Origin: an uncultured Bacteroidales bacterium
Lineage (GTDB): Bacteria > Bacteroidota > Bacteroidia > Bacteroidales > UBA12077
DNA length: 62,802 nucleotides
Reading direction: 5' to 3'
Assembly: GCA_964450375.1 (NCBI GenBank)
Contig: CAYVEW010000005.1
Span: 1 to 62,802 of the forward strand
The position numbers and the translations under genes are program-made. The notes under the pieces were generated by a model. That model saw only the letters and a list, made by a program, of their open reading frames with translations. It ran no database searches and had not been told where the DNA came from. Numbering within the stretch: position 1 is the first letter of the stretch; each line of letters starts with the position of its first letter. This document shows, piece by piece, positions 36,920 through 40,004 of this stretch.

Positions 36920-38476
36920 TTAAATATTATTATTGATTTTACGTTGCACTTTCTCTTTTATTATTTCCTGTATTTTACGATTTTCGATTTTGCTTTCGAG
37001 CCACGAAACAATATCGAAGTAGATAAACGACCTGCGCTCGTAGAATTTATCATTTAAAGGAATTAGCTGCTCTCGTAAATCTTTGAAAGCATCTGTTAAC
37101 TGATCTCGCGTAATAGAGCTCAGTTTTCTTAAAAATTTCATAATGATTTTCTGAAACAGGTGCAAATCATTTTTCTTTATCAGGAATCGATAAGTTGAAC
37201 GGATATAATAATCGACTAAATCGATATTGCCCAGTTCGTAATGACTGATCAGGTTCAGAATGCGCGCAAAGCCATGAATGTCGGAACGTAAATCAACATC
37301 TTTCATATTAATGATTTTATTCAACCAAAAAACTACCTGCCGGTAATTATCGTCGCCAAAGTACATGCAGGCAAATTTGTAATAAAAAATGGTGATGTAA
37401 TTTGTATCGAGTAGATGTTCAAAATCTTCCAGGCTATCGGCTATTTCAGGAATTATTTTTGATCCTTCGGTAAATTCGCCCAACATAAAATAGCGGTTTA
37501 TTTTATGTGTAGCCGAATATTTAAATAACAATAATCGAATGTTTTCGGTTAGTTTAAAATCAGTATTGTTTTTTATGGCATCCAACTTTTGAATGGTTAT
37601 AATAAACTCATCGTATTTATGCAATTTATTTTGTGCCACCAGCAAATTATTGATCGCACGAATGTACATTTCCAGTTTGGGAACAATTACATCGGGCTGA
37701 TCATCAAATAAGCCAAGCCATTTTTTTGCATATTCATAGCCACGCTCAAAATCCTGAATAAAAAAGTAATATCCTACAAACGAATTGTATAAATACATTT
37801 TTTCGTCGAACGAAAGCTTATCTTCCTGAAAAACCGGAAGTGTTGAATATAAAAAGCTGTTAACCAGCTCAAAGTCTTTGTGGTTACGTAAAAAGCCGAT
37901 TTTCAGATAGAAGGAGTACAGTTTAATGGTTAAGTTTGAAAAGGTGCTGATGTTATTAATTTTTTCGTTGATATGATCTGAAGCTTTAATTAAAGAGCTT
38001 ACTTTATCTTCAATATTTGTACGGATGTATTTTGTAACCAATCTTTTTTCGAATTCGGTTATTTCCAGTAAAAGCAGGTTTTTGTCGTGCTTCTCGGCAG
38101 TTTGCTTTGCTTTCTCGAGCATCTTCACACACTGGTCGTACATGCATTTATTGTAAAGGATAGTGGAATGATCTAATAGCTCGCGTATTTGTATATCAAT
38201 ATCCTCGTCGGGATTAAAACTGCGCAGGCTTTTAAGAACCTGCCGGAATAAATGTGCCTTTAAATTCGATATTTGTTGTGCTTTGATGCCAGGTTCTTTT
38301 TCAATTATTTTCGACTCGTTGTATACTTTTTGTTTGTCGATTAAGTCGAAAAGCTTAATAAACTTAGCATCTTCGAATGCTTTTTGTTTCGATGTATATA
38401 CTTTAAAATATCTTTTCTCTGCTTTGGTAAGCGATTTAATTAACTGAAATAAGGGGTCGTTATTATTGTTAGCCAT
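36920..38476 (-). CDS. Conserved Bacteroidetes helical-repeat (TPR-like) hypothetical protein
   Basis: N-terminal LFQLIKSLTK.EKRYFK motif; predicted all-helical with a TPR-like pattern; C-terminal F.YFDIVSW.ESK. Confidence 0.75.
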   Translation of the reverse strand: MANNNNDPLFQLIKSLTKAEKRYFKVYTSKQKAFEDAKFIKLFDLIDKQKVYNESKIIEKEPGIKAQQISNLKAHLFRQVLKSLRSFNPDEDIDIQIRELLDHSTILYNKCMYDQCVKMLEKAKQTAEKHDKNLLLLEITEFEKRLVTKYIRTNIEDKVSSLIKASDHINEKINNISTFSNLTIKLYSFYLKIGFLRNHKDFELVNSFLYSTLPVFQEDKLSFDEKMYLYNSFVGYYFFIQDFERGYEYAKKWLGLFDDQPDVIVPKLEMYIRAINNLLVAQNKLHKYDEFIITIQKLDAIKNNTDFKLTENIRLLLFKYSATHKINRYFMLGEFTEGSKIIPEIADSLEDFEHLLDTNYITIFYYKFACMYFGDDNYRQVVFWLNKIINMKDVDLRSDIHGFARILNLISHYELGNIDLVDYYIRSTYRFLIKKNDLHLFQKIIMKFLRKLSSITRDQLTDAFKDLREQLIPLNDKFYERRSFIYFDIVSWLESKIENRKIQEIIKEKVQRKINNNI

Positions 38477-38592
38477 TGTAATTTTAAAATTGATGTGTTT
38501 CGATATAATGTTTTAATAATCAAATATTAATAAAAATTTTAAAAGAGCTTAAATACCTATTAGGCATCGTAAATATGCAAATAATTTGTTTT

Positions 38593-38619
38593 AATACTAA
38601 AAATACTAAAAATACTTTT
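38593..38619. repeat. Three 9-bp direct repeats in a divergent intergenic region
   Basis: AATACTAAA AATACTAAA AATACTTTT. Confidence 0.6.
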
Positions 38620-38688
38620 GGTCGGTCGAGTAAGGAATGTTGATGAAACAAAAGTAAACAAAAATTTAAAAAACCAAATTTTATTACA

Positions 38689-39216
38689 ATGAGTTTTTCT
38701 AAAGTATCTACCTTAACATCAGGCGTTTTAGCTATTGCTAACAATGCTATGATTAATAATAAAGAAAATATTGTTTTGGACAGCGTGAATTCGTATCCGG
38801 GAAACGTGGAAAATATTCTGGTTATCGATAAGAATTTTAATGATATAGCTAATTACGATGATTTAATTGAATCGATTTATCAAATGGGTTTTCGGATTAT
38901 TATATCGGATACTTTTACCAATATTTTTACCGCCAAAGCAATAAGTTACGGGATTTTAACTATTGAAGTAACACGTGCTTTTATTGATAAGCTGGTTGAT
39001 TTAAGCAAATCATCGTCGATTAAATTATTTGTTGATGTACAGGGGCAGGAGGTGATGATTATTAATTCGGGCGAAAAAGAATTTTTTGAGTTAAGCGATT
39101 ATTGCAAGGAAAATCTTGATAGTGGCAGGGATGATGTGGAGAATTTGTATTCGGTATGGGATGATATGCATAATTATTATAAAAAGGAAGAAGTATTCGA
39201 TTACGCTATAGAATAA
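38689..39216 (+). CDS. Degenerate LeuD-like (aconitase swivel domain) protein
   Basis: ILVIDKNF, GFRIIISDTFTNIF, VDVQGQEV and FELSDYCKENLDSGRDDV align by eye to LeuD; the DTDxIIP and GSSREHA motifs are absent. Confidence 0.75.
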   Translation: MSFSKVSTLTSGVLAIANNAMINNKENIVLDSVNSYPGNVENILVIDKNFNDIANYDDLIESIYQMGFRIIISDTFTNIFTAKAISYGILTIEVTRAFIDKLVDLSKSSSIKLFVDVQGQEVMIINSGEKEFFELSDYCKENLDSGRDDVENLYSVWDDMHNYYKKEEVFDYAIE

Positions 39217-39264
39217 CATAAACGTTTTTTTTGATTTTCATTATTGTAGTTTTTGCGAACAATG

Positions 39265-39296
39265 GAGTCGGCTAATTTTAGCCGGCTTCTTTTTTT
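39265..39296. terminator. Terminator between convergent genes
   Basis: gtcggcta...tagccggc stem followed by a T tract. Confidence 0.65.
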
Positions 39297-39915
39297 AAAA
39301 AGTAATGACCAGAGCTAATTGCGGGACTTGTGTTTTAGGATCCACCCGAACATCAACATTTAACGAAGTTATTTTTGGTAATTTCTGGTTTAAAATTCCC
39401 TGGTTAAAATCGTGCAACGAACGGTAAAGGAAAGTTTTCGAGAGCACATGATAGGTTAGGGTACCCGTTAAAAATACAATGATGGATGCGGTTAAATAAC
39501 CGCTTTCTTCTTCGGTGTAGATACTTTCATCAATGGTTGAAACGCCTGTGCTGCTATCTTTTTTACCCGGATCGTAAGTATAGTGTTTGTAAGCCAGCAG
39601 CGGAGCAATAACCCACATTTGAGCCAAACCTGCTAATCGGGTGTATTTATATAAGTTAATATTTTGTGTAGCGATGGAATCAGAAAGCAAATAAGGCTTC
39701 ACATTCCCACCTAACATACCAACCCGTTCCCAGTTTTCTCCCTGGTTGGTTGAGAACTCTTGTTTAACCAAAAACAGCGGTGTTAATAAAATCCATTTGG
39801 TATTGTTTCGATAGTAAATGGAGTCAATCGACTTTTCTTTAATTGTAATCTGAGAATAAGTTGATTGCAAGAAAAAAGCAGATAATATAGATATCAAAAA
39901 AAGTTTCTTCACCAT
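39295..39915 (-). CDS. Hypothetical exported/membrane protein
   Basis: Signal peptide (…QSTYS-Q) plus two further hydrophobic segments. Start moved to ATG 39915. Confidence 0.65.
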   Translation of the reverse strand: MVKKLFLISILSAFFLQSTYSQITIKEKSIDSIYYRNNTKWILLTPLFLVKQEFSTNQGENWERVGMLGGNVKPYLLSDSIATQNINLYKYTRLAGLAQMWVIAPLLAYKHYTYDPGKKDSSTGVSTIDESIYTEEESGYLTASIIVFLTGTLTYHVLSKTFLYRSLHDFNQGILNQKLPKITSLNVDVRVDPKTQVPQLALVITF

Positions 39916-40004
39916 GTTCAATTTATTAAAAGTTAAAGGTATAAAAAGCATTTAGATTGACTATACCATTTCTCTTAATTTATGACGAAATTTCTTTGCA
40001 AATA

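What the first reader, a model, noticed from the sequence alone, without database searches (positions are those of the whole stretch)
38689..39216. Stand-alone, catalytically stripped LeuD homolog (candidate pseudoenzyme)
Seen: an intact 175-aa ORF with its own terminator that aligns to LeuD through the swivel core and C-terminal helix. It lacks the roughly 30-aa segment with DTDxIIP and the specificity loop, and GxGSSREHA is replaced by NDIANYDDL. No leuC or other leu gene is in the window. Established: those motifs are needed for substrate binding in LeuCD/aconitase. Inference: not a simple pseudogene (no stops or frameshifts); it may be a regulatory decoy that binds LeuC/aconitase or partners the divergent helical protein, i.e. 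a possible undescribed two-gene system.
Basis: partly seen in the sequence, partly recalled or inferred. Interest (0 to 1): 0.72.

Follow-up and report, generated by a model that had tools for sequence, protein, structure and literature searches.

The report
Non-catalytic LeuD left from leu operon
In one uncultured lineage of sediment Bacteroidales the leucine-biosynthesis operon shrank to a single gene: a LeuD enzyme subunit that has lost its catalytic parts, is still kept by selection, and still sits behind the old leu promoter next to the operon's probable regulator.

Summary
Window 38689-39216(+) is an intact 175-aa LeuD homolog. About 32 residues are missing (the segment after DTDxIIP, including the substrate loop). 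DTD and GSSREHA are replaced. It has its own terminator, and the window has no other leu gene.

It is not a decaying relic. About 50 orthologs of 169-179 aa exist in one monophyletic Bacteroidales clade, with dN/dS of 0.05-0.14.

The new result is its origin. The divergent 518-aa neighbour is a widespread, RusR(BT2802)-like, TPR-fold Bacteroidota protein. Outside this clade it sits divergent from leuA-leuC-leuD-leuB in 48 of 55 loci, or from ilvD. The sister lineage (L028) still has the full operon, and its LeuD is the closest canonical relative.

The stripped LeuD therefore descends in place from leuD after loss of leuA, leuC and leuB. It keeps the ancestral promoter and a conserved TAGnnnTCGTAA box. 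No close LeuC ortholog was found, so a LeuC decoy is unlikely.

Its function is inferred only: a non-enzymatic binding protein in the regulator's circuit.

The parts
38689..39216 (+). Stripped LeuD homolog, 175 aa, acidic (pI 4.3). It keeps the LeuD N-terminal strand, the swivel core and the C-terminal helices. It lacks about 32 aa containing the substrate-recognition loop. DTD and GSSREHA are replaced. It carries a family-specific conserved tail (E/D)(E/D)xx(D/E)Y(A/I)(I/G)(E/D).
38477..38688 (+). 212-bp divergent intergenic region, homologous to the region between the 518-aa gene and leuA of the sister lineage. It is the ancestral leu promoter and leader.
   Evidence: An nhmmer profile of 22 clade regions hits L028 5797-5975 (E=2.3e-11) and the region upstream of leuA in L029 (E=1.3e-6); alignment.
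38561..38572 (+). Conserved upstream box TAGGCATCGTAA (consensus TAGnnnTCGTAA), with its CGTAA core about 45 nt upstream of the -7 element. Candidate regulator-binding site (inferred).
   Evidence: The composite CGTAA-N39-41-TAnnTTTG occurs in 27 of 30 clade regions and 9 of 47 outgroup regions (all nine upstream of leuA). Shuffles give a mean of 0.018 and the reverse strand gives 0. It occurs once in the window.
38585..38620 (+). Bacteroidota-type promoter: TTTG (38585-38588) and the -7 element TActTTTG (38613-38620, consensus TAnnTTTG). The 24-nt spacer is conserved.
   Evidence: The promoter consensus comes from established knowledge of Bacteroidetes sigma-A promoters. The transcription start was not mapped.
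38648..38657 (+). Conserved leader box ACAAAAGTAA (clade consensus ACAAATGTAA), about 40 nt before the ATG. It is also present 19 nt before leuA in L028. It is the reverse complement of a TAnnTTTG element. Role unknown.
39264..39297 (+). Intrinsic-terminator-like hairpin with a T-run, lying between the convergent genes.
36920..38476 (-). 518-aa basic (pI 8.85), all-helical TPR-like protein. It is a full-length distant homolog of the BT2802/RusR family and the conserved divergent neighbour of leu/ilv operons in Bacteroidota. Putative regulator of the adjacent promoter.

Best explanation
**Shown**
- The gene is the in-place descendant of leuD from an ancestral leuA-leuC-leuD-leuB operon. That operon was transcribed divergently from a conserved RusR-like TPR gene.
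- At the base of one uncultured Bacteroidales clade, leuA, leuC and leuB were lost.
- leuD lost about 32 codons (the substrate-recognition loop), and its DTD and GSSRE motifs were replaced.
- The gene has since been kept full-length under strong purifying selection in essentially all sampled descendants.
- It still sits behind the ancestral leu promoter with its conserved upstream TAGnnnTCGTAA box.

**Inferred**
- It cannot act as the isopropylmalate isomerase small subunit.
- It is expressed under the old leu control.
- It works by binding rather than catalysis, most likely as a partner or ligand of the neighbouring TPR regulator. That would make it a moonlighting role of LeuD that outlived the pathway.

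**How sure**
- Origin, non-catalytic state and selection: about 0.85.
- The specific partner (the TPR regulator): about 0.25-0.3.
For: **Homology and lost motifs.**

**Family and selection.**
- 51 clusters at 90% identity, almost all 175 aa, with 30 invariant columns.
- Only about 5 representatives at 50% identity; the next hits are canonical Bacteroidota LeuDs.
- NG86 dN/dS is 0.046-0.14 for pairs with dS 0.12-0.96. Neighbouring genes fall in the same range.

**Genomic context.**
- The 518-aa gene lies about 205 bp upstream, divergent, in all 24 loci that reach it (L002 is cut off at the ORF's start), and in 33 clade loci overall. L110 and L111 add two more.
- Outside the clade the same gene faces leuA-leuC-leuD-leuB in L027, L028, L029 and in 48 of 55 metagenome loci. 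It faces ilvD-ilvB-ilvN-ilvC in L025 and L026.

**Descent from leuD in place.**
- The LeuD of L028 is the closest canonical sequence: 34% identity, against 22-26% for other LeuDs. It shares the N-terminus MSFxxxSTLTS and a C-terminal extension. The first codons are also similar at the DNA level.
- In an NJ tree of the 518-aa protein, L028 is sister to a monophyletic group in which every locus with a known neighbour carries the stripped LeuD.

**Regulatory region.** It is homologous to the leuA upstream region, and the box-promoter composite is conserved.

**Neighbour.**
- Full-length match to the BT2802/RusR family, E=1.3e-52.
- RusR is the putative regulator required for ribose growth.
- The fold is a TPR solenoid, a protein- and peptide-binding fold.
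- The neighbour is itself strongly constrained in the clade, with dN/dS of 0.016-0.099.

**Signs of a new function in the stripped LeuD.**
- New invariant residues in the former active-site loop (N55, Y56, D57).
- A highly conserved hairpin, KLFxDxxGQExMIxxxGEKEfF.
- A conserved acidic C-terminal tail.
Against: - No direct evidence of expression beyond one 151-nt metatranscriptome contig over 39100-39250. That contig could be DNA carry-over.
- No interaction test could be run.
- That the 518-aa protein is a regulator, and that it binds the conserved box, are both inferences.
- The stripped LeuD evolves about 3 times faster than the 518-aa protein at deep nodes (dN 0.35-0.43 against 0.11-0.15). 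That is not what one expects of a tightly co-adapted partner.
- One member (L024) carries an in-frame stop.
- A distant, non-orthologous leuCD elsewhere in these genomes is not excluded.
- The AF2 model is only moderate (pLDDT 60.7) and the termini are unreliable.
Confidence: 0.55

Rival explanations
1. Decoy or inhibitor of LeuC (or another aconitase-family large subunit). The stripped LeuD would occupy the small-subunit site of LeuC and hold it inactive or stabilise it.
For: The swivel core and the FxxIF...A...G helix shared with canonical LeuD are retained. The gene is under selection. It is expressed from a leu-type promoter.
Against: - No LeuC lies in the window.
- No protein more than 63% identical to the sister lineage's LeuC exists in the collection that contains this clade's genomes. 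A vertically inherited LeuC therefore seems absent.
- The loops that face the Fe-S subunit (the DTD segment, the recognition loop and the GSSRE loop) are exactly the parts deleted or replaced.
Confidence: 0.1
2. Leftover with a different, unrelated new role. The protein would be a small acidic binding or scaffold protein recruited to some process outside leucine control. Its position next to the TPR gene would be only historical.
For: - Synteny of the whole region (nitroreductase, GGT, the 518-aa gene, LeuD-like, sucB and sucA) is conserved in the clade, so adjacency alone carries little information.
- It evolves faster than the 518-aa protein at deep nodes.
- New conserved surfaces are unrelated to LeuD motifs.
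Against: The promoter, the upstream box and the leader box are conserved as tightly as in true leu operons (27 of 30 clade regions). This argues that leu-type regulation is still selected for. Of the four operon genes only leuD survived, and it survived at the promoter-proximal position.
Confidence: 0.25
3. Slowly decaying relic or pseudogene with no function.
For: Catalytic motifs are gone. One member has an in-frame stop. The family has a narrow taxonomic range.
Against: dN/dS is 0.05-0.14 in seven independent close genome pairs. Length stays at 169-179 aa across subfamilies that are only 37-44% identical. There are 30 invariant columns. The gene is retained in every lineage of a clade whose synonymous sites are saturated.
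Confidence: 0.04
4. Still an enzyme subunit. It would pair with an unidentified, divergent large subunit and use new residues (N55, Y56, D57) for a different substrate.
For: New invariant residues sit in the former active-site loop. Aconitase-family small subunits are known to switch substrates (LeuD, HacB, DmdB; NCBIfam hits).
Against: All known family members keep the Ser and Arg of GSSRE, which supply the catalytic base and the carboxylate contact (established knowledge of aconitase and IPMI). No large-subunit gene is linked to it in any of about 35 loci.
Confidence: 0.05

Closest known systems
LeuD, 3-isopropylmalate dehydratase small subunit (TIGR00171 / NF002458 / Pfam PF00694 Aconitase_C), Bacteroidota type
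   Same: Homologous over the whole length: the N-terminal strand, the swivel beta/beta/alpha core and the C-terminal helices. It descends in place from leuD. It is closest to the LeuD of the sister lineage L028, at 34% identity.
   Different: - About 32 residues including the substrate-recognition loop are deleted.
- DTD and GSSREHA are replaced.
- Scores fall far below the family cut-offs (55.7 against 167 bits).
- There is no leuC, leuA or leuB partner.
- It has new invariant residues and an acidic C-terminal tail.
Pseudoenzymes and trigger enzymes derived from metabolic enzymes, for example IRP2 (a non-catalytic aconitase-family regulator), IRP1/aconitase, and HisZ (a dead HisRS paralog that regulates HisG)
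   Same: An enzyme fold kept under selection after catalytic residues were lost. In the aconitase superfamily there is precedent for regulatory, non-catalytic members.
   Different: No regulatory activity has been shown here. This case is the small swivel subunit alone. It arose by reduction of its own operon, not by duplication. This comparison rests on general knowledge and was not tested.
RusR (BT2802) of Bacteroides thetaiotaomicron, for the neighbouring gene
   Same: The 518-aa neighbour matches the BT2802 family profile end to end (E=1.3e-52). Like rusR, it lies next to the operon it is thought to control.
   Different: Its score is below the family cut-off (179.5 against 550 bits), so it belongs to a different subfamily. 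It is associated with leu/ilv operons, not ribose PULs. Neither protein has a demonstrated DNA-binding activity.

Membership tests
LeuD (3-isopropylmalate dehydratase small subunit) | Aconitase_C / swivel-domain fold and detectable sequence homology | tested here: met
   NF002458 E=4.8e-15. Pfam PF00694 E=1.2e-4, at its cut-off. Top Foldseek hits are all LeuD structures.
LeuD (3-isopropylmalate dehydratase small subunit) | Score above the curated family cut-off (TIGR00171 116 bits; NF002458 167 bits) | tested here: not met
   41.2 and 55.7 bits.
LeuD (3-isopropylmalate dehydratase small subunit) | GxGSSREHA loop, which supplies the catalytic Ser and the substrate-binding Arg | tested here: not met
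   The loop is replaced by NDIANYDDL (family consensus xxVSNYDEx). The motif is absent from the whole window.
LeuD (3-isopropylmalate dehydratase small subunit) | DTDxIIP motif and the substrate-recognition loop that follows it | tested here: not met
   DTD is substituted and there is a 32-column gap against canonical LeuDs.
LeuD (3-isopropylmalate dehydratase small subunit) | A partner leuC, usually adjacent within a leu operon | tested here: not met
   No LeuC, LeuA or LeuB in the window or in any clade locus. There is no close LeuC ortholog in the protein collection. Whole clade genomes could not be scanned.
Pseudoenzyme (a non-catalytic homolog kept by selection) | Homolog of an enzyme that lacks the catalytic residues | tested here: met
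Pseudoenzyme (a non-catalytic homolog kept by selection) | Purifying selection and conservation across species | tested here: met
   dN/dS 0.046-0.14. 51 clusters with 30 invariant columns. Monophyletic retention across the clade.
Pseudoenzyme (a non-catalytic homolog kept by selection) | Demonstrated lack of enzyme activity, and a demonstrated non-catalytic role | not testable with these tools
   Needs leuD complementation, an activity assay and interaction assays.
BT2802/RusR family (the neighbouring gene 36920-38476) | Full-length match to NF058569 above its cut-off | tested here: not met
   Residues 6-506 match profile positions 4-502 of 502 at E=1.3e-52, but the score is 179.5 bits against a 550 cut-off. 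It is homologous but belongs to a different subfamily.
BT2802/RusR family (the neighbouring gene 36920-38476) | Acts as the transcription regulator of the adjacent operon | not testable with these tools
   Only context supports this: it lies divergent from leuA in 48 of 55 outgroup loci, there is a conserved upstream box, and it has a TPR fold.

The most novel reading that the evidence does not exclude
In Bacteroidota, LeuD has a second job as the protein signal or co-regulator of the RusR-like TPR regulator of the leu operon. That would make it a trigger enzyme. In this clade biosynthesis was lost and only the signalling job survived. The stripped LeuD plus the TPR protein would then be a self-contained regulatory pair that still reads out leucine status, for example to control uptake or other branched-chain amino acid genes. 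The acidic C-terminal tail (E/D)(E/D)xx(D/E)Y(A/I)(I/G)(E/D) would be the peptide bound by the TPR groove.
Probability: 0.2. Interest if true: 0.8.

Novelty: new variant of a known kind. Interest (0 to 1): 0.6.

Why it matters
- **A traceable origin for a pseudoenzyme.** This one arose by decay of its own operon, not by duplication. Its ancestral state, sister state and regulatory DNA can all be identified.
- **A route to an uncharacterised regulator.** The case points to a widespread RusR-like TPR protein and a TAGnnnTCGTAA box as the likely control system of leucine biosynthesis across Bacteroidota. I found no description of this in the papers I searched.
- **A possible hidden second function of LeuD.** If the stripped LeuD talks to that regulator, it would expose a role that is masked in organisms where the enzyme is still active.

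Tried and rejected
- **Rfam scan of 38300-39400.** Only chance-level hits (MicF E=0.38, U7 E=0.073), so no known leader or riboswitch.
- **Leader-peptide idea.** The 22-codon ORF in the window's intergenic region is not conserved in the other loci (read).
- **Searching for the clade's own LeuC.** I queried with the sister lineage's LeuC. No hit exceeded 63% identity, and none came from the clade's large contigs. This argues for loss but cannot exclude a distant xenolog.
- **Expression evidence.** One RNA run held 8% of the sampled words, and a single 151-nt contig covers 39100-39250. That is too weak to count.
- **Regulon search.** The box-promoter composite occurs only once in the 62.8-kb window. 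nhmmer hits elsewhere in the window are at chance level.
- **Co-folding the 518-aa protein with the stripped LeuD.** The last structure job went to the 518-aa protein instead.
- **Profile search of the 518-aa family against PDB sequences.** Nothing found. Pfam gave nothing significant.
- **p218 (39295-39951).** It co-occurs with the stripped LeuD only because of clade synteny, and in L001 it is displaced by an insertion. I rejected it as part of the system.

Full report
**1. The observation**

Window 38689-39216(+) is an uninterrupted 175-codon ORF. It is a LeuD homolog by several measures:
- NCBIfam NF002458 gives E=4.8e-15 (residues 41-169 against profile positions 68-195 of 202), and TIGR00171 gives E=1.5e-10.
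- Pfam Aconitase_C gives E=1.2e-4, exactly at its cut-off.
- The best PDB sequence match is LeuD 3q3w at E=1.3e-5. A family profile gives 1.6e-6.
- An AlphaFold2 model built on 26 family members is only moderate (mean pLDDT 60.7), with unreliable termini. Its core (residues 42-143, pLDDT 65-86) has LeuD structures as its 16 best Foldseek matches (3q3w, 3h5h; E about 1e-5; rmsd 2.2-2.6 A over 105-112 columns). Aconitase and IRP1 domain 4 follow.

I aligned it with canonical Bacteroidota LeuDs. Three differences stand out:
- A 32-column gap removes the segment after DTDQIIPARF. This segment carries the substrate-recognition loop.
- The DTD motif is itself substituted.
- NFGCGSSREHAAW is replaced by NFNDIANYDDLIE.

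A terminator-like hairpin with a T-run lies at 39264-39289. The window has no aconitase or LeuC signature and no GxGSSRE motif. It gives no tblastn hit for LeuA, LeuC, LeuB, IlvD, IlvB or IlvN.

**2. It is a conserved family under selection, not a relic**

The protein collection holds 51 clusters (at 90% identity) of this protein, 49-77% identical to the window's copy. Nearly all are exactly 175 aa, and all come from uncultured Bacteroidales. They share 30 invariant and 24 nearly invariant columns.

An exhaustive profile search of 1.84 billion representatives found only about five full-length family representatives at the 50% clustering level. The hits after those are fragments and chimeric gene calls that carry canonical Bacteroidota LeuD sequence, followed by full-length LeuDs.

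The GTDB species set holds 19 loci, and the JGI metagenome set adds more. Among them are two divergent subfamilies:
- The P0054 type (L033-L035) still keeps the canonical YKKECLLNGYNDVDY stretch.
- The 169-aa P0053 type (L110).
Both carry the same deletion and the same motif loss.

I computed Nei-Gojobori dN/dS for genome pairs whose synonymous sites are not saturated (dS 0.12-0.96). It is 0.046-0.14. The neighbouring genes fall in the same range: the 518-aa gene 0.016-0.099, GGT 0.025-0.13 and the nitroreductase 0.054-0.087.

At deep nodes the protein has changed about three times more than the 518-aa neighbour (dN 0.35-0.43 against 0.11-0.15). One member, L024 from a low-coverage contig, has an in-frame stop at codon 51.

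**3. What the neighbour is**

The divergent 518-aa gene (36920-38476, minus strand) has more than 3,700 homologs. These are 60-65% identical even in Tenuifilaceae and Cytophagales.

It matches the NCBIfam BT2802 family profile end to end (E=1.3e-52) but scores below the family cut-off. BT2802 is RusR, the putative regulator of the B. thetaiotaomicron ribose locus. RusR is required for growth on ribose and is treated as the regulator of that operon in later work.

Its AlphaFold2 model (pLDDT 79) is all-helical. The model matches TPR solenoids that bind peptides or proteins, such as LGN, kinesin light chain and a phage Rap protein. The protein is basic (pI 8.85), while the stripped LeuD is acidic (pI 4.2-4.8).

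**4. The key result: genomic history**

Every clade locus with enough sequence has the 518-aa gene about 205 bp upstream and divergent. This holds for all 24 loci that reach upstream of the ORF (L002 is cut off at the ORF's start), for 33 clade loci, and for L110 and L111.

Outside the clade, the same gene is divergent from branched-chain amino acid operons:
- ilvD-ilvB-ilvN-ilvC in L025 and L026.
- leuA-leuC-leuD-leuB in L027 (Fulvivirgaceae), L028 and L029.
- In a metagenome survey of 80 loci, 48 of the 55 outgroup loci with at least about 700 bp upstream have leuA as the divergent neighbour. It is usually followed by leuC, leuD and leuB.

Several lines point to descent from leuD in place:
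- In a neighbour-joining tree of the 518-aa protein, L028 (full operon) is sister to a monophyletic group. Every member of that group with a known neighbour has the stripped LeuD.
- The canonical 206-aa LeuD of L028 is the closest canonical sequence to the family, at 34% identity against 22-26% for others. It alone shares the N-terminus MSFxxxSTLTS and a C-terminal extension. The first codons are also alike at the DNA level.
- A profile of 22 clade intergenic regions finds the intergenic region between the 518-aa gene and leuA in L028 (E=2.3e-11) and the region upstream of leuA in L029 (E=1.3e-6).

The shared intergenic architecture is as follows:
- A TAGnnnTCGTAA box.
- A TTTG element.
- A Bacteroidota -7 element TAnnTTTG, about 45 nt after the CGTAA core of the box.
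- In the clade and in L028, an ACAAATGTAA box in the leader.

The composite CGTAA-N39-41-TAnnTTTG is present in 27 of 30 distinct clade regions and in 9 of 47 outgroup regions. All nine outgroup cases are upstream of leuA, in genomes whose 518-aa protein is only 47-76% identical. Shuffled sequences give a mean of 0.018 regions, and the reverse strand gives none.

I conclude that the stripped LeuD is the in-place descendant of leuD. One lineage lost leuA, leuC and leuB. The surviving gene still sits behind the ancestral leu promoter and its conserved upstream element.

**5. Was the pathway moved or lost?**

I used the LeuC of L028 as a query. No protein in the 5.8-billion-protein collection is more than 63% identical to it. 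None of the best 120 hits comes from the large contigs of the clade. The clade's 518-aa and LeuD-like proteins from those same contigs are in the collection.

A relocated vertical ortholog would be expected at well over 70% identity. The operon therefore appears to be lost rather than moved. A distant xenolog cannot be excluded, because whole genomes could not be scanned.

**6. How it most likely works**

Shown:
- Origin from leuD in place.
- Loss of every motif that LeuD contributes to the active site.
- Strong purifying selection.
- Retention of leu-type cis elements.
- A constrained TPR-type neighbour.

Inferred:
- The protein is non-catalytic and acts by binding.

Some features look newly selected, not decaying:
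- The former active-site loop now carries invariant N55, Y56 and D57.
- The hairpin KLFxDxxGQExMIxxxGEKEfF (residues 112-133) is the most conserved part of the family, although it is variable in true LeuDs.
- The C-terminus is a conserved acidic-hydrophobic tail.

My preferred mechanism, at roughly 25-30%, is that the protein is a ligand or partner of the TPR regulator. That would be a moonlighting role of LeuD that outlived the pathway. Three points favour it:
- The neighbour has a peptide-binding fold.
- The two proteins have opposite charge.
- The tail was already present in the catalytic LeuD of the sister lineage.

The rivals are listed below:
- An unrelated new binding role, about 25%.
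- A LeuC or aconitase decoy, about 10%.
- A subunit of an unknown enzyme, about 5%.
- A relic, about 4%.

**7. Comparison with known systems and novelty**

It works like a pseudoenzyme, and the aconitase superfamily already has a regulatory, non-catalytic member in IRP2. It is not a member of the LeuD equivalog:
- Its scores are far below the curated cut-offs.
- The GSSRE and DTD motifs are missing.
- The recognition loop is missing.
- It has no LeuC partner.

I found no paper describing a stripped LeuD, or a RusR-like regulator tied to leu operons. I rate it a new variant of a known kind, with interest 0.6. The origin story is unusually clean. It also exposes a candidate leucine regulon control system across Bacteroidota. 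The function, however, remains inferred, and the family is confined to one uncultured clade from marine sediment and sludge.

Noticed in passing
window 36920-38476 (-); loci L025-L029 and L043-L109: The 518-aa RusR-like TPR protein is a very conserved Bacteroidota protein. It remains 47-65% identical to the window's copy in distant relatives, including Tenuifilaceae and Cytophagales. It is almost always divergent from leuA-leuC-leuD-leuB (48 of 55 loci) or from ilvD-ilvB-ilvN-ilvC. It is a strong candidate for an undescribed regulator of branched-chain amino acid biosynthesis.
   Followed up: partly
window 38561-38572, and the leuA upstream regions of L027, L028, L081, L084, L086, L091, L097, L098 and L101: A conserved TAGnnnTCGTAA box lies at a fixed distance (its CGTAA core is about 45 nt) upstream of the TAnnTTTG -7 element of leu promoters in distantly related Bacteroidota. 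It is a candidate operator or activator site.
   Followed up: partly
window 38648-38657 and 38613-38620: The leader box ACAAATGTAA is the reverse complement of the -7 element TACATTTG, which lies about 30 nt upstream. The two could be a palindromic operator, or a second face-to-face promoter for the 518-aa gene. Unresolved.
   Followed up: no
L024 741-1229: The most divergent family member (42% identity) has an in-frame stop at codon 51, in a contig with 7x coverage. It is either a sequencing error or a lineage in which the gene is dying.
   Followed up: partly
window 39295-39951 (-): A 218-aa protein with a signal peptide and a C-terminal ...VITF ending, which looks like an outer-membrane protein. 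It has no family match. It was found in 26 of the clade loci and in none of the outgroup loci fetched up to that search.
   Followed up: partly
L001 8624-12252; L002; L110 2064-5123: In some clade genomes a cluster is inserted right beside the stripped LeuD. It comprises an ECF sigma factor, two small proteins, an MbnB/TglH/ChrH-family protein and an HvfC-family protein, plus DoxX in L001 and L002 but not in L110.
   Followed up: no
window 38596-38615: The promoter spacer of the window's copy contains a tandem TACTAAAAA TACTAAAAA repeat. The 24-nt spacing between TTTG and the -7 element is nevertheless the same as in the other clade members.
   Followed up: no
L028 3255-4640: The LeuC of the sister lineage has no relative above 63% identity in 5.8 billion proteins, so that lineage is itself very poorly sampled.
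   Followed up: no
L007, L011, L017 (record titles): Contigs carrying this Bacteroidales-type locus are filed under Calditrichia, Chlamydiales and Thiohalospira MAGs. This is probably a binning error.
   Followed up: no
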